Shown here: piece after piece, positions 56,360 through 64,000 of the stretch | How the letters are laid out: the number at the start of each line of letters is the position of its first letter | How positions within the stretch are numbered: position 1 is the stretch's first letter | Virus record (IMG/VR): IMGVR_UViG_3300029288_000175 | Location: 222-64,221 of that record | Length of the DNA: 64,000 nt | Strand: one strand, 5' to 3' | From: a virus | Taxonomy: Duplodnaviria > Caudoviricetes | Position numbers and translations under genes: made by a program | Notes under the pieces: model-generated | What the model was told of the DNA's origin: nothing | Database searches by the model: none | Seen by the model: only the letters and a program-made list of their open reading frames with translations

Positions 56360-56714
56360 CGGCGCATCACACCGGTGCTGGTACTGCGGCGACGTGCTCC
56401 AGTCAGGCACCACGACCATCGACCACGTGATCCCCAAGAGTCGCGGGGGCCTCGGCCTCCAGGGCAACACCGTGTATGCCTGCCGGCGCTGCAACGCCAC
56501 CAAGGACGACCTGCTGCTGGACGAGTTCCGCGAGTGGATAACCGACGGCGTTGCAGCGCCGTTGCGGGACGCCATGGAGCACCTGGACGTCGTCCGCCGC
56601 CTGCTGCCACCTGAGACGGCGCGGACCGTCACAGCGCGGATCAACGAGGCCATGGCGGAGTTGTACGGGGCCCCGATCGTGTTCTACGGCGAGCGAAACG
56701 CGAGACGGAGGTAG
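56325..56714 (+). CDS. HNH endonuclease
   Basis: CWYCG...TIDHVIPKSRGG....N...ACRRCN..K; AGGAGG before GTG 56325. Confidence 0.85.
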   Translation: MSGYPRSPRHRDGASHRCWYCGDVLQSGTTTIDHVIPKSRGGLGLQGNTVYACRRCNATKDDLLLDEFREWITDGVAAPLRDAMEHLDVVRRLLPPETARTVTARINEAMAELYGAPIVFYGERNARRR

Positions 56715-56718
56715 AGGC

Positions 56719-57624
56719 ATGAGCATCAGGGCCATGCAGGCCGTGTTCGACTCCAGTCAGCAGAAGGCCGGCCACCGGTTGGTGTTGCTCACCATCGCCA
56801 ACTGCGCCAACGACGACGGCGTGGCGTGGCCGTCCCTAGACCACCTGGCCGCCATGTGCAACGCCACGCGCGGGTACGTCAAGGACGCCATCAAGGCGCT
56901 GTGCAGCGCCGGCGAGTTGGAGGTGATCACCCGCACGGCCGTGTCCGGTGCCAGCCGCAGCAACTACTACCACATCCTCGTCCCCGGAGCCGCCAGCTCC
57001 ACCTACGACCCGGCGGACTACACCTCACCGGCCACCGCATCCCCTGCCACTCCCGCCCAGACACGGCCACCTGCTCAGACCCCTCCCCCGGCCGCGACTC
57101 AGCCTGCCGACTCGCTCCGGGAGGGGGGTGCAGGGACACCCCTGGGAGGGGGGTGCAGGGACACCCCTGGGAGGGGGGTGCAGGGACACCCCGGAGGGGG
57201 GTGCAGGGACACCCCATATCCCACATTAGATCCAAGAGAGAGAGCCACGCCCCTATCGGGGCGTGCGCCGGCGCCCCAGTCCCCACCGGCGTATGCCTGC
57301 CAGCAATGCCAGAGGGTGTTCCGCACGCGGGGGGCGCTCACGTTGCACCTGCGCCGGGACCACGATGGCGGGCACGACAGCGACGCCGTGACGGCGTACA
57401 GGCGCCACACCAAATGCGCGCCCAACCAGGAGCAACGAGCCGCGATCACGGCAGCCGTTGCCGACCTGCCCCTGTGGGAGGAGGTCCTCACCGAGTGGAT
57501 GGTGCACCGGTGGCGGCCCACTAACGTCGCCAACATCATCGACCGCTACCAGCGGCTGGCCAAGGAGCGCGCCACGAGCATCTCGCCCACGGCGGTGACG
57601 GCCGACATGATCATACGCCGGTGA
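56719..57624 (+). CDS. phage replication initiator (N-terminal wHTH, C2H2 finger, DnaD-like C-terminus)
   Basis: LVLLTIANCANDDGVAWPSLDHLA; CQQCQRVF....L..H...H; internal iterons. Confidence 0.8.
   Translation: MSIRAMQAVFDSSQQKAGHRLVLLTIANCANDDGVAWPSLDHLAAMCNATRGYVKDAIKALCSAGELEVITRTAVSGASRSNYYHILVPGAASSTYDPADYTSPATASPATPAQTRPPAQTPPPAATQPADSLREGGAGTPLGGGCRDTPGRGVQGHPGGGCRDTPYPTLDPRERATPLSGRAPAPQSPPAYACQQCQRVFRTRGALTLHLRRDHDGGHDSDAVTAYRRHTKCAPNQEQRAAITAAVADLPLWEEVLTEWMVHRWRPTNVANIIDRYQRLAKERATSISPTAVTADMIIRR
57121..57215 (+). repeat. four 22-bp iterons, putative replication origin
   Basis: GAGGGGGGTGCAGGGACACCCC at 57121, 57146, 57171 and 57194. Confidence 0.85.
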
Positions 57625-58093: not shown

Positions 58094-58744
58094 GTGGACC
58101 AGAACGTGAGTGACGCCACGGTGCGTGACTGCGCCGTGTCCGAGTTGGTCGTCGCCGTAGCGGCCATCGACCGCGCCCTGGACACAGAGGCGATGGAGCA
58201 GCACCTCAAGGGCGTGCCTGATGACGACCTGCCGGTGCTGTACGAGACGTTCCGCTCCGTCCATGAGCGGTCCTGGCAGTGCCAGTGCCTCGTGGTGACC
58301 GAGATGATGCGCCGGGTGCGGTGGGGGGAGGGGCGGGCTGAGTCGGTACGTGAGGCGCTGGGCATGGGCAGCGTCAGGACGGTGCAGTACCGCGCCGCCG
58401 TTGGCGCGATGCTCACCGATCCGGAGGTGCAGTCCGCCGTGCCCGTGCTCGGTGGCGAGACGTGGTTTCGCATCGCCACCGACTCCCCCGACCCTAAGGC
58501 CGCCATCGTCATGGCAGCCGACCGTAAGGCCGCCGACCCCGGCTACAGCACGCGCCAGTTCGCCGCCGAGGTGCGCGGCCAGGACCCACCGACCATCGAA
58601 CGGATCGTGCTGGTGGGGGAGGATACGGGAGCCAATGTGCGGCTAGCGGAGCGGTTGGCCCGCAGCTACAACGTGCGCGTGGAGATACGCGAGGTGCTGA
58701 GCGCACCACCTCTAGGAGCGTATGGGCCGGTGGCGCCGGCCTAG
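58094..58744 (+). CDS. hypothetical phage protein
   Basis: AGGAGG RBS. Confidence 0.7.
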   Translation: MDQNVSDATVRDCAVSELVVAVAAIDRALDTEAMEQHLKGVPDDDLPVLYETFRSVHERSWQCQCLVVTEMMRRVRWGEGRAESVREALGMGSVRTVQYRAAVGAMLTDPEVQSAVPVLGGETWFRIATDSPDPKAAIVMAADRKAADPGYSTRQFAAEVRGQDPPTIERIVLVGEDTGANVRLAERLARSYNVRVEIREVLSAPPLGAYGPVAPA

Positions 58745-58897: not shown

Positions 58898-58926
58898 TTG
58901 CGCGCGCGCAACGGATGTTGTACAAT
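58898..58926 (+). promoter_or_regulatory. boxed early promoter
   Basis: TTGCGC-17bp-TACAAT; TTGCGCGCGCGCAA 58898-58911. Confidence 0.75.
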
Positions 58927-58952: not shown

Positions 58953-59582
58953 ATGAACCAGGGGAAGCTGAGCGTGAAGAAGGGTGACACGGTGATCTGG
59001 GACAGGTTTGGCGACTGCGGCGTCTATCGCGGCACCGCGCACCTGAGCGCACAGAAGATCGCCATGGTCAGGAAGGACGGCATCATCGTCCTGGAGAACG
59101 GAGGATGGTTCACGGTCCAGGGGTTCGCTCGCGGTAAGGCGAGCGGCCGGATCATGGAGGCCACGCCGGAACTCCTGGCCGAGGCCGAGCGGCAAGCCGC
59201 CGAGAGACTGGAGGAGCGCCGCCGTCTGGAGAAGCAGAATGACGAGGTGCGAGCGCAGATTGCGAATGCGGCGGCCGAGCGCCACGAGGAAGCCCGCCGT
59301 ATCTTCGGGGAGCAGGTAGAGGCGGCCACCGAACCCATGCCCGGTATCCATCAGACGGTCATCACCTGGCCCGACGGCACGAAGCGGTTCCTGGTAGCAA
59401 CCGTGCACCAGGTGCGGCACTTCAACTATGGCGAGTGCCGCGAGTACACCGCCGTGTCGGTGGGCGTGACGCTGTTCCAGGAGACGGAGTACCGCTGGGC
59501 ACGCGTGGACATGGAGCGTGAGGCGGATACCTGGCAGGAGGCGGTCTACGAGGCGCTGGGCGGCGAACTGCCCAACAAGTGA
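58953..59582 (+). CDS. hypothetical early protein
   Basis: GGAGG RBS. Confidence 0.7.
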   Translation: MNQGKLSVKKGDTVIWDRFGDCGVYRGTAHLSAQKIAMVRKDGIIVLENGGWFTVQGFARGKASGRIMEATPELLAEAERQAAERLEERRRLEKQNDEVRAQIANAAAERHEEARRIFGEQVEAATEPMPGIHQTVITWPDGTKRFLVATVHQVRHFNYGECREYTAVSVGVTLFQETEYRWARVDMEREADTWQEAVYEALGGELPNK

Positions 59583-59587
59583 TCGTA

Positions 59588-59653
59588 GCCGAAAGCCCCC
59601 CAGCGCGGGGGGTTCCGCCGGGGCTGGCCGCCCGACGCTGATGAGGCAGGCTG
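59588..59653 (+). ncRNA. type II hammerhead ribozyme
   Basis: GCC-GAAA-stem III-UUC-stem I-CUGAUGA-GGC with possible loop I/3' pseudoknot. Confidence 0.8.
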
Positions 59654-59665
59654 AGGAGAGGTGCA

Positions 59666-60256
59666 GTGATGGGTGTGAAGATGACGAGGAATGATGCGGG
59701 GGAGATCGAGCTGTCTACGCCGTTTCACCCGAGCGTCCCGCCAGCCGCGCGTGATCTGGGAGGGAAGTGGATCGCATCGCGCGAGGTATGGACGTTCGAC
59801 CCACGTGACGAGTCGAACGTACGCGAGATGGTGCGGCGCATCTTCGGCACTGACGGCAGCGATCAGCCGCGGCTGGTCACGGTCATGCACCGCGTGACCT
59901 CTCGGGAGAGTCAGAACTCGACGCTCTGGTTCTGCGGGCGCGAGGTGGCGCAGCGCCCCGTGCGCGATGCGCGGGTGCGGCTCGGTACCGGGGTCCGGTA
60001 CGCTGGCGATGCTCAGTTCCCCGGTTCTGGTGGCAGCGCGAAGTACCCTGCGCTGAACGCCACTGGTCTGGTGCTCGAGATCCGCGACGTGCCAGTGGAG
60101 TTGGCAGTCGCAGCAGTGAACGACGACACGTGGATCGTTGATGATGTGGGCCCGGTCGAGCCCGTGGGGGAGTCCGACGACCCGCTCGCCGGCACCGACG
60201 ACGCTGTGCTCGTGGCGGAGATGGAGCGTCGCGGGTACGTCGTAAGCCGCAGGTGA
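59666..60256 (+). CDS. hypothetical early protein (HARP-like N-terminus)
   Basis: TPFHP....ARDLGGKW....WTF; GAGGAG RBS. Confidence 0.7.
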   Translation: MMGVKMTRNDAGEIELSTPFHPSVPPAARDLGGKWIASREVWTFDPRDESNVREMVRRIFGTDGSDQPRLVTVMHRVTSRESQNSTLWFCGREVAQRPVRDARVRLGTGVRYAGDAQFPGSGGSAKYPALNATGLVLEIRDVPVELAVAAVNDDTWIVDDVGPVEPVGESDDPLAGTDDAVLVAEMERRGYVVSRR

Positions 60257-60325
60257 GCCGAAACGCCCGCGTGTAGGCGCGGGCATTCGCCGGGGCTGGC
60301 CGCCCGGCGCTGACGAGGCAGGCCA
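60257..60325 (+). ncRNA. type II hammerhead ribozyme (second copy)
   Basis: GCC-GAAA-stem III-AUU-7-bp stem I-CUGACGA-GGC; UGGCC/GGCCA pseudoknot; C-A mismatch next to the core. Confidence 0.65.
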
Positions 60326-60339
60326 CTGGGGAGGGCACG

Positions 60340-60534
60340 ATGGCAACAGTGACAGAGCAGCGCACCACGCTTCGCGTCATCTGCGCCTGGTGCGGGCGCG
60401 TGCTCGGCACCAAGGACGGCAAGGGCATCAGTGGCGACAGCCATACCTGCTGCCACGAGTGCCTCACCAAGATGCTCGCCGGCGTGTGCGAAGTGCCGGA
60501 CACGGACGATGATGCGGAGGTGGCGTCATGCTGA
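60340..60534 (+). CDS. small zinc-finger protein
   Basis: VICAWCGR.LG.KDG...SH.CC.EC. Confidence 0.75.
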   Translation: MATVTEQRTTLRVICAWCGRVLGTKDGKGISGDSHTCCHECLTKMLAGVCEVPDTDDDAEVASC

Positions 60535-60761
60535 CCGCAGAGCAGGTACGTGAGAAGCGCGCTGAGGCGCAGGGAGAGGTGGTACGGTACGCGGCAATCC
60601 GCGCCGATGCCATGAGACGCTGGAGCGAGGCACTGCAACGCCTAGACCACGACCAGATGCGTACAGCGAACCGTGAGATCGAGGACGCCGGGCGCACGAT
60701 GATGGCGTGGCGGTGGACCAGCGACGCTTTCACAGTGGTACTGGACGGGGAGCCGGAGTGA
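60528..60761 (+). CDS. hypothetical helical protein
   Basis: GGAGG RBS; stop abuts helicase ATG. Confidence 0.65.
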   Translation: MLTAEQVREKRAEAQGEVVRYAAIRADAMRRWSEALQRLDHDQMRTANREIEDAGRTMMAWRWTSDAFTVVLDGEPE

Positions 60762-63700
60762 TGGGCGCTGAATCACGGTTGCTGCTGAGTCGGGCGCTCC
60801 GTCACCTGGCGAGCCGGTGTGACGGGGCGGTCTCGCACGACGATCAGGGATTCGCCGCCCCCGATGTGAGCGACGGCCACCGCTTGGCGCGTGCCGACCA
60901 CGAGTCGTGGACGCTCGCAGAGGCCCAGCGGGCCTGGGAGATTGTCCGGCGCTACTCCGGCCAGCTCGCAGAGGTGGGCATCTCCCCGGCAACGATCCCA
61001 GCCCCGATACCGGAGACGCAGCAGGTCGCCGCCCCAGCCGCCACCAACGGCCACGCCCGCAGGGCCACCCGCGTGGTGACCGTCGAGCAGGGGGTGGTGG
61101 TGATCGCGTTCCCCTACGACGCCGACCTCGTGGCGGCCGTGAAGAGCATCCCCGGCCGGCGGTTCGATTCGGGCCACAAGCACTGGACGGCACCCCTGTC
61201 GTCGCTGGCGGCGGTGCGCGCGTTTGCCGAGAAGCACAGGTTCGTCGTGACCGAGTCGGCCGCGAACGCCCCGGTCACCGAGGCAGCGGCCGCGCCGGCC
61301 CCGCCTAGCAGGACCGTGCGGCTGGACGGCGACCGCCTGGTGGTGCGGTTCGACTATGACGCCGACCTGGTGGCACAGGTGCGGGAGTTGGCCGGCGCCC
61401 GTTGGGACAAGACCGGGCGCCACTGGAGCGTTCCCGTGTCTAGCGCGAGCGTGGCCGCGCTGCGGCGGCTCGGCTTCGTGCCCACGGACCCGAAGGCCCT
61501 CGACGCGGCCGTGGACGGCCTCGCGCGCAACGAGGAGGCCAGCCGCGCTGCCACGTCCACCCTGGAGGTCCCCGGCCTCGGCGGCACGCTGCGGCCGTTC
61601 CAGGCGGCCGGGGTGGCGTACGCTATGAAGCAACGACGATTGTTCATAGCTGATGAGATGGGAACCGGGAAAACTGTGCAGGCGCTGGCAACCGTCCAGG
61701 CCACCAACGCATACCCCGCCCTGGTCGTCTGCCCCGCCTCGCTCAAGCTCAACTGGCAGCGTGAGGCGCGCAAGTGGCTACCCGGCCGGTCGGTCGCCGT
61801 CCTGAACGGGACGATGGACCTGACCGCCGACGTGTGCATCATCAACTACGACGTGCTGGCGCGGCGGTTGGACGCACTGAAGGCGGTCCGCTGGCAGGCG
61901 GTGGTCCTGGACGAGTCACACTACATCAAGAGCGCCAAGGCTCAGCGAACGAAGGCGGCGCAGGAACTGTGCCAGGCGGCACCGCTCCGGCTCCTACTCT
62001 CCGGCACGCCGCTGCTGAACCGGCCCGTCGAGCTGGTGACGCAGTTGCAGGCGCTGGGGCGCCTGGACGAGTTCGGCGGCTCCTGGAAGTTCATCAGCCG
62101 CTACTGTGGGGCCACGCGGACGAAGTACGGCGTTGACATGAGCGGCGCCACCAACCTGGACGAGCTGCACACCCTGCTGCGCCAGCGGTGCCTTCGGGGC
62201 GAAGTTGTGGTAGAATGCGAACATGGACCACTAACTATTGCGGAGATTGTTGAAAGCGAGTTGCCGGTTTCCGTATGGTCGGTGGCAAAGGATGGATGCA
62301 TTGAACTCAGACGAACGGTTGGTTACAGCAAGCGCCATCATCAAGGCGCGTTGGTGCGAGTACGAACAGAGGATGGAAGGTCGTTTGATTGCACCCCCGA
62401 TCATCGGGTTTGGACATCGTGTGGCTACAAACGGGCCGCCGCCCTTACTGGTAGCGATTACGTGTTGGTACTGTGGCAAACGAGTTGTCCGCCGGTGGCA
62501 CGGATTGCAAACCGCCCTAAAGTACTGCTCTCAGAAGTGCGCGGGCAAAGCGGCGGCACAGGACCATGTAAGGGGCCAGCGTATGATGGAAACCAGAGCA
62601 CGCAATCGTGGCCCGGATGTTACGAAGACATGCGAGTGGTGTGGCAAGACGTTCACCGGGCGCAATGTGAAGCAACTGCGGCAACGACGCTTTTGCAGTC
62701 TGTCCTGCTCAAATGCGTGGAAACAAACACTGCCGCATGCACAGAAGACGTTAGCAGCGATGTGGGCGGCACCCAGTCACAAAGGCAAGCGATACCCGGC
62801 AATCAGCGCGGCGTTGAAAGGACGCCGCCGCAGTCAGGAATCAATAGAAAAGGGGCGCGTTACCGCACGAGCAAGGCATCGGCTTCCGGGCCGCAGCGAT
62901 CGCATATCACCCTGTGCACGAAAACTATGCGCGGCGCTAGGGTGGCAGGAACAGTGGTTAGAGTACATGTTGGAGATCAAAAAGCCCCAAGGCAAGTTCA
63001 TAACCGGGGTTCGGAACTTCCTGTATCTAGACTTAGCAAACCCGCAATACAAGTTAGCGGTAGAAGTAGACGGTACTACTCATCGTCTTCTCAGGCAACA
63101 GCAACTAGATGCATGGAAGACGAGAGTACTTCTGTCGTTAGGGTGGCGAGTATTGAGGTACTCCAATCAGCAGGTGACGGACGAGTTGACGGCAGTAGTT
63201 GTGGAGGTGCAGTCGTTTATGACATCGAGGTAGAAGGGAACCACAACTTCTTTGCCAACGGAGTGCTTGTTTCTAACTGCTACGTGCGCCGCACGAAGGC
63301 GCAGGTCCTCGCTGAACTGCCGGCGAAGCAGCGCGTGGCGGTTCCTCTCGAACTCAGCAACGAGGCTGAGTACCGCCGGGCAGAGCGCGACGTGGCCGGC
63401 TACCTGCGTGACCGGGCCGCGGAGCACGCCCGCGAGGATGCCGTGCGCGACGGCGCGGACCTGTTCGCGGCTGAGGCTCGCGCCCGCGCCGCCGGGAACC
63501 GCGCGAGCAGCGCGGCGGAGACGGCGCAGCAGTTGGTGCGGATCGAGGCCCTGAAACGCCTGGCGGCCGAGGGGAAACTGAGGGCAGCGATCGGGTGGGC
63601 GCAGGACTTCCTCGACGCGGCCGAGGGCGAGAAACTCGTGCTGTTCGCCCACCACGTTGACGTACAGCAGCGCCTGTACGACGCGTTCCCCGGCGCGGCG

Positions 63701-64000
63701 CGCCTGATGGCTGAGGACTCAGTGCAGGAGCGCCAGGCCAACGTGGATCGGTTCCAGACCGACCCGGCCTGCCGGCTGATCGTGTGCAGCCTGACCGCTG
63801 GTGGCGTGGGCATCACACTCACCGCCGCCAGTAACGTGGCGTTCCTGGAACTCGCTTGGACACCTGCATCAATGAGCCAGGCAGAGGATCGCGTGCATCG
63901 CATCGGCCAGCGCGACGCCGTGACGGCGTGGTACCTGCTGGCCGCCGGCACGATTGACGAGGACATCGAGGCGCTACTGGAGGCGAAACGTGCCGTGATG
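60761..64000 (+). CDS. HARP/SMARCAL1-like SNF2 helicase containing an intein (truncated by window end; absent from ORF track)
   Basis: Hand translation: two HARP domains (FPYDADLV..VK.IPGRRFD), LRPFQ..GV, ADEMGTGKT, DESH, SGTP, AGGVGITL, QAEDRVHRIGQ. Confidence 0.9.
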   Translation, partial: MGAESRLLLSRALRHLASRCDGAVSHDDQGFAAPDVSDGHRLARADHESWTLAEAQRAWEIVRRYSGQLAEVGISPATIPAPIPETQQVAAPAATNGHARRATRVVTVEQGVVVIAFPYDADLVAAVKSIPGRRFDSGHKHWTAPLSSLAAVRAFAEKHRFVVTESAANAPVTEAAAAPAPPSRTVRLDGDRLVVRFDYDADLVAQVRELAGARWDKTGRHWSVPVSSASVAALRRLGFVPTDPKALDAAVDGLARNEEASRAATSTLEVPGLGGTLRPFQAAGVAYAMKQRRLFIADEMGTGKTVQALATVQATNAYPALVVCPASLKLNWQREARKWLPGRSVAVLNGTMDLTADVCIINYDVLARRLDALKAVRWQAVVLDESHYIKSAKAQRTKAAQELCQAAPLRLLLSGTPLLNRPVELVTQLQALGRLDEFGGSWKFISRYCGATRTKYGVDMSGATNLDELHTLLRQRCLRGEVVVECEHGPLTIAEIVESELPVSVWSVAKDGCIELRRTVGYSKRHHQGALVRVRTEDGRSFDCTPDHRVWTSCGYKRAAALTGSDYVLVLWQTSCPPVARIANRPKVLLSEVRGQSGGTGPCKGPAYDGNQSTQSWPGCYEDMRVVWQDVHRAQCEATAATTLLQSVLLKCVETNTAACTEDVSSDVGGTQSQRQAIPGNQRGVERTPPQSGINRKGARYRTSKASASGPQRSHITLCTKTMRGARVAGTVVRVHVGDQKAPRQVHNRGSELPVSRLSKPAIQVSGRSRRYYSSSSQATATRCMEDESTSVVRVASIEVLQSAGDGRVDGSSCGGAVVYDIEVEGNHNFFANGVLVSNCYVRRTKAQVLAELPAKQRVAVPLELSNEAEYRRAERDVAGYLRDRAAEHAREDAVRDGADLFAAEARARAAGNRASSAAETAQQLVRIEALKRLAAEGKLRAAIGWAQDFLDAAEGEKLVLFAHHVDVQQRLYDAFPGAARLMAEDSVQERQANVDRFQTDPACRLIVCSLTAGGVGITLTAASNVAFLELAWTPASMSQAEDRVHRIGQRDAVTAWYLLAAGTIDEDIEALLEAKRAVM
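62189..63277 (+). mobile_element. intein (363 aa) in the helicase, no in-frame endonuclease
   Basis: LRQR/CLRGEVVV, block B TPDHRV, VYDIEVEGNHNFFANGVLVSN/CYVRRTK; frame open throughout on hand translation. Confidence 0.9.
62238..63233 (+). CDS. Zn-finger/NUMOD3/DUF559 putative homing endonuclease in the +1 frame inside the intein (start uncertain: 62292, 62373 or 62421)
   Basis: CWYCGK..KYCSQKC, CEWCGKTF..RFCSLSC, KGRRRSQESIEK, LDLA...KLAVEVDG..H....D..K...L..LGWRVLRY.N. Confidence 0.88.
   Translation: MRRLLKASCRFPYGRWQRMDALNSDERLVTASAIIKARWCEYEQRMEGRLIAPPIIGFGHRVATNGPPPLLVAITCWYCGKRVVRRWHGLQTALKYCSQKCAGKAAAQDHVRGQRMMETRARNRGPDVTKTCEWCGKTFTGRNVKQLRQRRFCSLSCSNAWKQTLPHAQKTLAAMWAAPSHKGKRYPAISAALKGRRRSQESIEKGRVTARARHRLPGRSDRISPCARKLCAALGWQEQWLEYMLEIKKPQGKFITGVRNFLYLDLANPQYKLAVEVDGTTHRLLRQQQLDAWKTRVLLSLGWRVLRYSNQQVTDELTAVVVEVQSFMTSR

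What the first reader, a model, noticed from the sequence alone, without database searches (positions are those of the whole stretch)
59588..59653. Type II hammerhead ribozyme between early genes (copy 1)
Right after a stop codon and before the next RBS, the sequence folds into a full hammerhead core. Stem II is GCC/GGC; GAAA is at 59591-59594; stem III is G-C6/G6-U; the UUC triplet predicts a cut after C59615; stem I is 6 of 7 bp; CUGAUGA is at 59638-59644. Loop I UGGCC can pair with the 3' GGCUG as a pseudoknot, as in bacterial type II hammerheads. Self-cleavage would segment the early polycistronic mRNA and give the downstream gene a 5'-OH end, possibly affecting stability.
Basis: partly seen in the sequence, partly recalled or inferred. 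Interest (0 to 1): 0.8.

Follow-up and report, generated by a model that had tools for sequence, protein, structure and literature searches.

The report
Hammerhead ribozyme pair between phage genes
Two genuine self-cutting RNA motifs (type II hammerhead ribozymes) bracket one small gene in the replication region of an uncultivated high-GC phage and probably chop one long message into single-gene pieces, an arrangement already described for phages and prophages, so this is a clean but ordinary example.

Summary
Rfam's type II hammerhead model (RF02276) hits 59587-59655 (47.4 bits) and 60256-60327 (47.6 bits), both above its 37-bit cut-off. There are no other hits in the window.

Both copies have:
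- an intact catalytic core;
- Watson-Crick pairs next to the core;
- capped stems I and III and an open stem II;
- a 5-bp pseudoknot between loop I and the 3' tail.

The predicted cuts are after C59615 and after U60287. Each ribozyme fills the gap between an upstream stop codon and the next Shine-Dalgarno sequence.

The window is an IMG/VR phage contig. Its terminase is closest to those of Streptomyces and Actinoplanes phages.

The same hammerhead subtype occurs in 96 other viral contigs and 100 bacterial species genomes, often in arrays of up to 13. It shows strong stem covariation and the same stop-ribozyme-RBS layout.

Perreault et al. 2011 already described type II hammerheads with this pseudoknot flanking single prophage genes. 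Later work showed in-vivo cleavage of such ribozymes. This scan has also noted such arrays on other DNA.

Verdict: a real new member of a known kind. Its physiological role (transcript segmentation, end protection) remains inferred.

The parts
58898..58926 (+). Promoter-like site: TTGCGC (inside the palindrome 58898-58911), 17-nt spacer, TACAAT. It is the likely start of the transcript that carries both ribozymes.
   Evidence: Read. The consensus scan did not report it, because the -35 hexamer matches only 3 of 6. Inference only.
58953..59582 (+). Gene A, 209 aa, unknown function. Its stop TGA 59580-82 lies 5 nt before HH1. A second in-frame stop, TAG 59586-88, overlaps the ribozyme's first bases.
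   Evidence: ORF list, sequence. No family hit beyond weak matches.
59587..59655 (+). Hammerhead ribozyme copy 1 (type II).
   Evidence: RF02276 47.4 bits against a gathering score of 37, full model 1-66. Core and stems read.
59615..59616 (+). Predicted self-cleavage site of HH1, between C17 (59615) and C1.1 (59616).
   Evidence: Position of H17 in the Rfam alignment. Not tested biochemically.
59669..60256 (+). Gene B, 195 aa, a phage protein of unknown function (phrog_18108). This is the gene bracketed by the two ribozymes. The last base of its stop TGA 60254-56 is the first base of HH2.
60256..60327 (+). Hammerhead ribozyme copy 2 (type II). Core CUGACGA 60310-16; pseudoknot UGGCC 60297-301 with GGCCA 60321-25.
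   Evidence: RF02276 47.6 bits. Sequence.
60287..60288 (+). Predicted self-cleavage site of HH2, between U17 (60287) and C1.1 (60288).
   Evidence: Rfam alignment. Not tested biochemically.
60340..60534 (+). Gene C, 64 aa, Cys-rich. RBS GGGGAGGG 60329-36 lies directly after the HH2 tail.
60761..64000 (+). SNF2-family helicase gene with an intein, downstream in the same orientation. It runs off the end of the window.
   Evidence: Pfam SNF2-rel_dom 2.8e-29, Helicase_C, Intein_splicing. phrog_62 DNA helicase 7e-104.

Best explanation
Both elements are functional type II hammerhead ribozymes carried on one rightward transcript of the phage's replication module.

Proposed mechanism:
- Folding. As RNA polymerase passes each one, the stem III hairpin forms, then the stem I hairpin. 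The loop I/3'-tail pseudoknot and the 3-bp stem II then close the core.
- Cleavage. The 2'-OH of C59615 (HH1) or U60287 (HH2) attacks its own 3' phosphate.
- Products. The transcript is cut into three pieces: gene A; a 672-nt gene-B-only piece; and gene C to the helicase.
- Ends. Each upstream piece ends in the stem III hairpin with a 2',3'-cyclic phosphate. Each downstream piece starts with a 5'-OH flush at the stem I hairpin, with its Shine-Dalgarno sequence 1-5 nt past the ribozyme.

Likely benefit (inferred):
- The cistrons become independent messages whose ends resist 5'-end-dependent RNases and 3' exonucleases.
- The ribosome-binding sites are insulated from upstream sequence.

Basis: the motif, topology and placement are shown. 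Cleavage itself and its physiological effect are inferred from the family's known chemistry and from published tests on relatives.
For: - Rfam. RF02276 hits at 47.4 and 47.6 bits against a 37-bit cut-off, both on the coding strand, both with the full-length model.
- Core and stems. All invariant core positions are present (the difference at position 7, U in HH1 and C in HH2, is at the position Perreault's consensus lists as N). The pairs next to the core are A-U, G-C and C-G.
- Differences between the two copies keep the fold. Stem III is entirely different in sequence but paired. The C/A mismatch in stem I of HH1 is C-G in HH2. The pseudoknot tail is GGCUG in HH1 and GGCCA in HH2.
- Relatives. 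Fifty-one unique relatives of this subtype align with compensatory changes in 12 of 14 consensus pairs.
- Layout. The stop-ribozyme-RBS layout is the rule for the subtype. Of 51, 46 have an ORF stop within -12 to +3 nt of ribozyme base 1, and 44 have an ORF start within about 40 nt downstream.
- Arrays. Same-strand arrays are common, with up to 13 per locus and a median gap of 331 nt.
- Literature. PMC3088659 describes type II hammerheads with this pseudoknot, shows the pseudoknot is needed for fast cleavage, and reports ribozymes flanking single prophage genes. PMC8782182 shows three type II hammerheads near phage genes in Desulfovibrio vulgaris cleaving in vivo and in vitro.
- Gene B homologues. 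On other contigs (L071, L073, L076) they have a strong promoter-like site just upstream instead of a ribozyme. This fits a requirement for a fresh 5' end at this gene.
Against: - No biochemical or transcript data exist for this phage. The host is unknown and the phage uncultivated.
- The nested hammerhead fold without the pseudoknot is 7.4-7.5 kcal/mol less stable than the predicted MFE alternative for both copies. Fold z-scores are unremarkable (-0.4, -0.7) in this GC-rich sequence. Efficient cleavage therefore depends on co-transcriptional folding and the pseudoknot.
- HH1 has a stem I mismatch and two wobble pairs in its pseudoknot, so it may be slower.
- The ribozymes are not conserved at these positions in the nearest relatives found, which are only 40-52% identical in protein. 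Positional conservation could not be tested.
- The promoter that would make the genes co-transcribed is only consensus-like.
- The stability and insulation benefits are untested for any natural phage hammerhead (PMC6765202).
Confidence: 0.8

Rival explanations
1. Regulated rather than constitutive cleavage. The upstream stop codon touches or overlaps the ribozyme's 5' strand. A terminating ribosome, or the competing alternative fold, would therefore prevent stem II and stem III from forming. Cutting would then depend on how heavily the upstream gene is translated, or on conditions. This is a refinement of the main reading, not an exclusive alternative.
For: The stop codon ends within -12 to +3 nt of ribozyme base 1 in 46 of 51 subtype members and in both copies here. 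Alternative folds are 7.4-7.5 kcal/mol more stable than the nested hammerhead fold. Perreault et al. raise allosteric control as a possibility.
Against: The tight spacing can be explained by genome compaction alone. Hammerheads with pseudoknots cleave fast during transcription, probably before the first ribosome arrives. No conserved alternative pairing was demonstrated here.
Confidence: 0.15
2. The pair excises a 672-nt gene-B RNA (59616-60287) whose two ends rebuild a hybrid hammerhead (5' half of HH2 plus 3' half of HH1). The ends are then joined, by reverse ribozyme reaction or by an RtcB-type ligase, into a circular mRNA.
For: Cleavage leaves the 5'-OH and 2',3'-cyclic phosphate ends that such ligation needs. 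Both copies share an identical stem II (GCC/GGC) and 34 of 36 bases of the 3' half, so a hybrid core is sterically possible. Adjacent hammerheads in phage arrays share the variable stem II pair in 43 of 55 cases, against 0.39 expected.
Against: The stem II sharing is confounded by relatedness of copies within an array, and it fails in mixed arrays (L112, L140, L143, L154). The hybrid would be held by only 3 bp across a 600-nt loop. Gene B has a normal stop codon, so a circle offers no endless reading frame. No circular RNA has been reported for bacterial or phage hammerhead pairs in the papers read. A similar bold reading made earlier in this scan on other DNA did not survive checking.
Confidence: 0.04
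3. The motifs are inactive relics or merely structured spacers. They would act as hairpins that stabilise or separate cistrons without cutting.
For: The nested hammerhead fold is not the thermodynamic optimum. HH1 has a stem I mismatch and a wobble-rich pseudoknot. There are no activity data.
Against: Every catalytic-core position is intact in both copies, and all differences between the copies keep the pairing. That pattern is not expected of decaying relics. Tested relatives of this type cleave (PMC3088659, PMC8782182).
Confidence: 0.06
4. Chance resemblance in GC-rich intergenic sequence.
For: GC-rich sequence forms many hairpins, and fold z-scores are not significant.
Against: Two independent hits at E about 1e-6 each, on the same strand and in equivalent intercistronic positions. 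There are none on the reverse strand or elsewhere in 64 kb, and none in 14 control genomes.
Confidence: 0.01

Closest known systems
Type II hammerhead ribozymes of bacteria and prophages (Rfam RF02276; Perreault et al. 2011, PMC3088659)
   Same: Same permuted topology (open stem II, capped stems I and III). Same core, a short 2-3 bp stem II, and the same loop I/3'-tail pseudoknot. Same phage-gene context, with several ribozymes flanking single genes.
   Different: Nothing categorical. HH1 uses a UUC triplet, a stem I mismatch and a pseudoknot with two G-U pairs. HH2 has C at core position 7 and an AUU triplet with a C/A mismatch at 15.2-16.2. The host lineage appears actinobacterial.
The CUGGCC-loop / AGGCC-tail subgroup of type II hammerheads found here in 96 IMG/VR contigs and 100 bacterial species genomes (including Streptomyces, Chloroflexi, Mesorhizobium, Burkholderiales)
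   Same: Identical loop I and tail motif. The stop codon touches the 5' end and the Shine-Dalgarno sequence follows directly after the tail. All copies lie on the same strand as the genes.
   Different: This phage has only two copies, while some relatives have up to 13. The nearest sequences (a Chloroflexi MAG and Streptomyces chromosomes) still differ throughout stem III.
The two adjacent type II hammerheads of Desulfovibrio vulgaris (loc 2 and loc 3, about 250 nt apart), shown active by cyPhyRNA-seq (PMC8782182)
   Same: A pair of type II hammerheads a few hundred nucleotides apart, near hypothetical and phage-like genes.
   Different: Those are experimentally verified and these are not. The host phylum and the flanked genes differ.
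HHphage of haloviruses HF1/HF2, upstream of an early helicase gene (PMC3088659)
   Same: A hammerhead in the early/replication region of a virus, upstream of a helicase operon. A mapped 5' end there coincides with the cleavage site.
   Different: That one is a core-variant hammerhead in an archaeal virus, 13 nt from the helicase start. Here two small genes lie between HH2 and the helicase.
Synthetic ribozyme insulators such as RiboJ (Lou et al. 2012, cited from my own knowledge; usage seen in titles)
   Same: A hammerhead placed just before an RBS, so that cleavage removes upstream RNA and standardises the 5' end of the message.
   Different: RiboJ is engineered, derives from a satellite-RNA hammerhead of another topology, and is an analogy for function only.

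Membership tests
Hammerhead ribozyme type II (Rfam RF02276) | Covariance-model score at or above the curated gathering score (37 bits) over the full model | tested here: met
   47.4 bits (59587-59655) and 47.6 bits (60256-60327), model positions 1-66 of 66.
Hammerhead ribozyme type II (Rfam RF02276) | Conserved catalytic core: C3 U4 G5 A6 N7 G8 A9, G12 A13 A14, A15.1-U16.1, and H17 not G | tested here: met
   HH1: CUGAUGA 59638-44, GAA 59591-93, A59594-U59614, C59615. HH2: CUGACGA 60310-16 (position 7 is the N in Perreault's consensus), GAA 60260-62, A60263-U60286, U60287.
Hammerhead ribozyme type II (Rfam RF02276) | Type II topology: stems I and III closed by loops, stem II open, in the order stem II 3' strand, GAAA, stem III, cleavage site, stem I, CUGANGA, stem II 5' strand | tested here: met
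   The order was read directly and matches the Rfam consensus structure line. All listed pairs were verified as standard pairs by script.
Hammerhead ribozyme type II (Rfam RF02276) | Standard pairs directly next to the core (10.1-11.1, 1.1-2.1, 15.1-16.1), the acceptance rule of Perreault et al. 2011 | tested here: met
   G59645-C59590, C59616-G59637 and A59594-U59614 in HH1, with the equivalent three pairs in HH2. The rule is quoted.
Hammerhead ribozyme type II (Rfam RF02276) | Pseudoknot of four or more pairs between loop I and the nucleotides just 3' of stem II (present in most type II members) | tested here: met
   HH1: UGGCC with GGCUG (3 G-C pairs plus 2 wobbles). HH2: UGGCC with GGCCA (5 Watson-Crick pairs). 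The GGCUG tail also occurs in other full members (L123, L149, L164). Covariation of the pseudoknot itself could not be assessed, because the relatives were selected by that motif.
Hammerhead ribozyme type II (Rfam RF02276) | Stems supported by compensatory changes among relatives | tested here: met
   In 51 unique sequences, 12 of 14 consensus pairs show double changes that keep the pair. The variable stem II pair is CG 22, UA 20, GC 7, AU 2, with none broken.
Hammerhead ribozyme type II (Rfam RF02276) | Site-specific Mg2+-dependent self-cleavage giving 2',3'-cyclic phosphate and 5'-OH ends | not testable with these tools
   Needs a transcription/cleavage assay or end-specific RNA-seq.
Intercistronic hammerhead clusters of phages and prophages (Perreault et al. 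2011, Figure 3 and text) | Two or more hammerheads on the gene strand, flanking single genes or short gene blocks in a phage genome | tested here: met
   The window is an IMG/VR virus record with terminase, portal, replication initiator and helicase genes. The two ribozymes bracket gene B on the coding strand.
Viroid-like or retrozyme-type circular RNAs with hammerheads | Ribozymes define a unit-length RNA that is circularised and replicated or retrotransposed. The hammerheads are usually type III or I, and the unit is repeated or free-standing. | tested here: not met
   This is a DNA phage operon with type II ribozymes and an ordinary protein gene with a stop codon between them. No repeat unit or circular-RNA evidence was found. 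Circularisation itself is untested.

The most novel reading that the evidence does not exclude
The two ribozymes are not just cutters. Their halves are interchangeable (identical stem II, 34 of 36 identical bases in the 3' half). The excised 672-nt gene-B RNA could therefore close on itself through a hybrid hammerhead and be ligated into a circular, exonuclease-proof mRNA during infection.
Probability: 0.04. Interest if true: 0.7.

Novelty: new member of a known kind. Interest (0 to 1): 0.3.

Why it matters
This adds a well-formed example, probably from an actinobacterial phage, to the large and still functionally unexplained set of phage hammerheads. The side survey shows how stereotyped the design is: the stop codon touches the ribozyme, the Shine-Dalgarno sequence follows directly, and arrays reach 13 copies. 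That makes phage operons a good system for asking why ribozymes are used in place of promoters and terminators. In three contigs, gene B homologues have a promoter-like site where this phage has a ribozyme, a hint that could be tested. None of this changes current understanding.

Tried and rejected
- Synteny. The nearest relatives were found through gene B (L003, 40% identity; metagenome homologues up to 52%) and the helicase (L004-L008, up to 48%). They carry no hammerhead in the fetched loci, or in the whole records where those were searched. Conservation at this position could not be tested, and no link between gene B and the ribozymes was found.
- Known phages. There is no DNA match to the 5.5-kb region or to the ribozyme itself. 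A sub-threshold RF02276 hit in Streptomyces phage TurkishDelight (25.9 bits) has GAUA and AUGAUGA in place of the core motifs, so I rejected it.
- A near-exact pattern search for this ribozyme's 3' half in viral contigs found nothing.
- Thermodynamic folding of each element alone does not return the hammerhead fold and is no better than shuffles. This is uninformative in such GC-rich sequence, since the pseudoknot is not modelled.
- Hybrid-ribozyme compatibility of adjacent copies looked enriched (43 of 55). It is confounded by relatedness within arrays, so I treat it as inconclusive.
- The function of gene B stayed unknown after Pfam, PHROGs, NCBIfam and the ESM Atlas.
- No other ribozyme class or sub-threshold hammerhead was found elsewhere in the window.

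Full report
**What is there**

The stretch 59583-59668 is a short intergenic gap on the + strand. It lies between gene A (stop TGA 59580-82) and gene B (RBS GGAGAGG 59655-61, ATG 59669).

Infernal against all of Rfam 15 gives two hits above the gathering score in the 64-kb window. Both are to Hammerhead_II (RF02276), both on the + strand, and both cover the whole model:
- 59587-59655: 47.4 bits, E = 1.3e-6.
- 60256-60327: 47.6 bits, E = 1.2e-6.

The cut-off is 37 bits. More permissive searches of the whole window found no other hammerhead-like or ribozyme hit. The same family search rang in none of 14 control genomes. Chance is excluded for practical purposes.

**Anatomy of copy 1**

| Feature | Position |
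|---|---|
| Stem II | GCC 59588-90 with GGC 59645-47 |
| G12 A13 A14 | 59591-93 |
| Stem III | A59594-U59614 (15.1-16.1), then G-U, then six C-G pairs closing a 5-nt loop |
| Cleavage site | C59615 is H17, so the cut falls between 59615 and 59616 |
| Stem I | 59616-22 with 59631-37, 6 of 7 pairs (C59618/A59635 mismatch) |
| Loop I | G-CUGGCC-G |
| Core | CUGAUGA 59638-44 |
| Pseudoknot | UGGCC 59625-29 with GGCUG 59649-53 (three G-C pairs, two wobbles) |

**Anatomy of copy 2**

- The last base of gene B's stop codon (TGA 60254-56) is the ribozyme's first base.
- GAAA is at 60260-63.
- Stem III has a completely different sequence but pairs (GCCCGCG with CGCGGGC), with a C/A mismatch at 15.2-16.2.
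- H17 is U60287, so the cut falls between 60287 and 60288.
- Stem I has seven perfect pairs. The A of copy 1's mismatch is G here.
- The core is CUGACGA. Position 7 is the N in Perreault's consensus.
- The pseudoknot is a perfect UGGCC with GGCCA.
- The RBS GGGGAGGG and the ATG 60340 of gene C follow.
- The 3' halves of the two copies (stem I to the tail) are identical at 34 of 36 positions. The stem III sequences are unrelated.

**Context**

The window is an IMG/VR virus record of 64,221 bp. It is linear, CheckV estimates 79% completeness, and GC is about 66%.

- It encodes a large terminase, a portal and other structural genes.
- On the + strand from about 56.5 kb it has a replication module: an O-like replication initiator (56551-57624), small unknown genes, the two ribozymes, and an SNF2 helicase interrupted by an intein.
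- The terminase is 44% identical to that of Streptomyces phage TurkishDelight and 42% identical to that of Actinoplanes phage phiAsp2. An actinobacterial host is therefore likely but not shown.
- A promoter-like site (TTGCGC, 17 nt, TACAAT; 58898-58926) follows a terminator-like hairpin at 58723-43 and precedes gene A.
- If that promoter is used, one transcript carries gene A, HH1, gene B, HH2, gene C, a further small ORF and the helicase. This step is inferred.

**Relatives of the ribozyme**

- A pattern for loop I, the core and the tail (CTGGCC, 4-12 nt, CTGANGAGNCAGGC) matches 96 other viral contigs.
- With CGAAA required upstream, it matches 100 bacterial species genomes across many phyla. 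These include at least five Streptomyces, Chloroflexi, Mesorhizobium, Caulobacter, Burkholderiales, Bacillota and Saccharibacteria.
- About three quarters of the viral matches are full type II hammerheads.
- I aligned 49 unique ones with the two copies here (alignment A2). RNAalifold recovers stems I, II and III, and 12 of 14 pairs show compensatory double changes. The variable stem II pair is CG 22, UA 20, GC 7, AU 2, with none broken.
- A covariance model built from A2 finds 124 hits in 727 kb of these loci, all in gene orientation. Arrays reach 13 (L112), 9 (L154) and 8 (L082) copies. The median gap between adjacent copies is 331 nt.
- Of the 51 sequences, 46 have an upstream ORF of at least 50 codons whose stop ends within -12 to +3 nt of ribozyme base 1, often as UAG or UGA sharing bases with it. 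Forty-four have an ORF start within about 40 nt after the tail, and 35 of those have a Shine-Dalgarno motif.
- The two copies here are therefore typical members of a common, stereotyped class.

**Relatives of the phage**

- The nearest relatives found by gene B or by the helicase are only 40-52% identical in protein. They have no hammerhead in the fetched loci or whole records.
- Positional conservation could not be assessed, and gene B is not specifically linked to hammerheads. This agrees with the published remark that the flanked genes are not constant.
- In three contigs with gene B homologues, a strong sigma-70-like promoter (10-11 of 12 matches) lies where this phage has HH1. It sits directly upstream of the gene B homologue in two contigs and one small gene further up in the third.
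- This is a small sample. It suggests that a new 5' end just before this gene is what matters, made by a promoter there and by a ribozyme here.

**What is known**

- Perreault et al. 2011 (PMC3088659) described the first natural type II hammerheads and their abundance in bacteria.
- The same paper described the loop I/3'-tail pseudoknot and showed by mutation that it is needed for fast cleavage. It also reported that many lie near prophage genes.
[quoted passage not shown] The authors took this to imply processing of long phage transcripts into operon-length or single-gene mRNAs.
- It notes a halovirus hammerhead upstream of an early helicase gene, with a mapped 5' end at the cleavage site.
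- cyPhyRNA-seq (PMC8782182) showed that three type II hammerheads near phage-like genes of Desulfovibrio vulgaris cleave in vivo and in vitro. Two of them lie about 250 nt apart.
- A 2019 review (PMC6765202) states that the purpose of such bacterial and phage ribozymes is still undefined.
- Earlier notes of this scan report comparable arrays on other DNA.

**Mechanism and its status**

- Shown: motif membership, intact core, topology, pseudoknot potential, covariation in relatives, and placement between stop codon and RBS on the coding strand.
- Inferred from family chemistry and tested relatives: co-transcriptional self-cleavage after C59615 and U60287. This would give a gene A piece, a 672-nt gene B piece and a piece from gene C to the helicase. 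Upstream pieces would end in the stem III hairpin with a 2',3'-cyclic phosphate. Downstream pieces would begin with a 5'-OH flush at the stem I hairpin.
- Inferred from general knowledge of bacterial mRNA decay: such ends resist 5'-monophosphate-dependent RNase E/J entry and 3' exonucleases. The folded ribozyme remnant would also insulate the adjacent RBS, much as engineered ribozyme insulators do.
- Caveats: without the pseudoknot, the hammerhead fold is 7.4-7.5 kcal/mol above the predicted optimum for both copies. HH1 has a stem I mismatch and a wobble-rich pseudoknot. No wet-lab data exist.

**Rivals**

- Translation-gated or otherwise regulated cleavage is a plausible refinement. The stop codon abuts the ribozyme and competing folds exist, but nothing here demonstrates it.
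- Circularisation of the excised gene B RNA through a hybrid hammerhead is not excluded, and I rate it at about 4%. The apparent compatibility of adjacent ribozymes is confounded by relatedness. Gene B has an ordinary stop codon. A similar idea on other DNA failed later checks in this scan.
- Inactive relics are unlikely, because every core position is intact and all differences between the copies preserve the fold.
- Chance is excluded by the scores.

**Verdict**

It is a new member of a known and common kind, so interest is modest (0.3).

Noticed in passing
window 59580-59588: Gene A ends in two in-frame stop codons, TGA-TCG-TAG. The second (TAG 59586-88) overlaps the first bases of the ribozyme. 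Many relatives also begin with UAG or UGA shared with the upstream stop.
   Followed up: partly
window 59616-59651 vs 60288-60323: The 3' halves of the two ribozymes (stem I, loop I, core, stem II strand, tail) are identical at 34 of 36 bases. The stem III hairpins share no sequence. This suggests duplication or gene conversion of one half only, or strong constraint on the pseudoknot half.
   Followed up: partly
L071 2823-2851; L073 577-605; L076 1035-1064: On metagenome contigs, homologues of the bracketed gene B (47-52% identity) have a strong sigma-70-like promoter (10-11 of 12 matches) at or near the place where this phage has a hammerhead. In L071 a hairpin followed by a short T run lies after the gene.
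   Followed up: partly
L112 (IMGVR_UViG_3300025889_000748), L154, L082, L170, L120: These are very large same-strand arrays of type II hammerheads: 13, 9, 8, 7 and 6 copies within a few kb, with a median gap of 331 nt between adjacent copies across loci. They lie between small phage ORFs.
   Followed up: partly
window 58723-58743 and 58898-58926: A terminator-like hairpin overlaps the stop of the preceding gene. About 150 nt later comes the palindrome TTGCGCGCGCGCAA, whose left arm, with a TACAAT 17 nt downstream, looks like a promoter/operator for the ribozyme-bearing operon.
   Followed up: no
window 60707-64000: The SNF2-family helicase is interrupted by an intein (Pfam Intein_splicing over residues 509-857 of the ORF). 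A 331-aa ORF in another frame (62238-63233) lies inside the intein region.
   Followed up: no
window 59669-60256: For gene B (phrog_18108, unknown function), the Atlas lists faint structural matches (TM 0.29-0.38, under the 0.5 the tool calls same-fold) to three phage SNF2-helicase clusters; for two of them the match covers only its first ~65 residues. Distant homologues occur in Salisaeta phage SSIP-1 (gp41) and in Fusobacterium phages.
   Followed up: partly
L070 1501-1565 (Streptomyces phage TurkishDelight 31354-31418, minus strand): A sub-threshold RF02276 hit (25.9 bits) has GAUA and AUGAUGA in place of the core motifs. It is probably not a hammerhead.
   Followed up: yes
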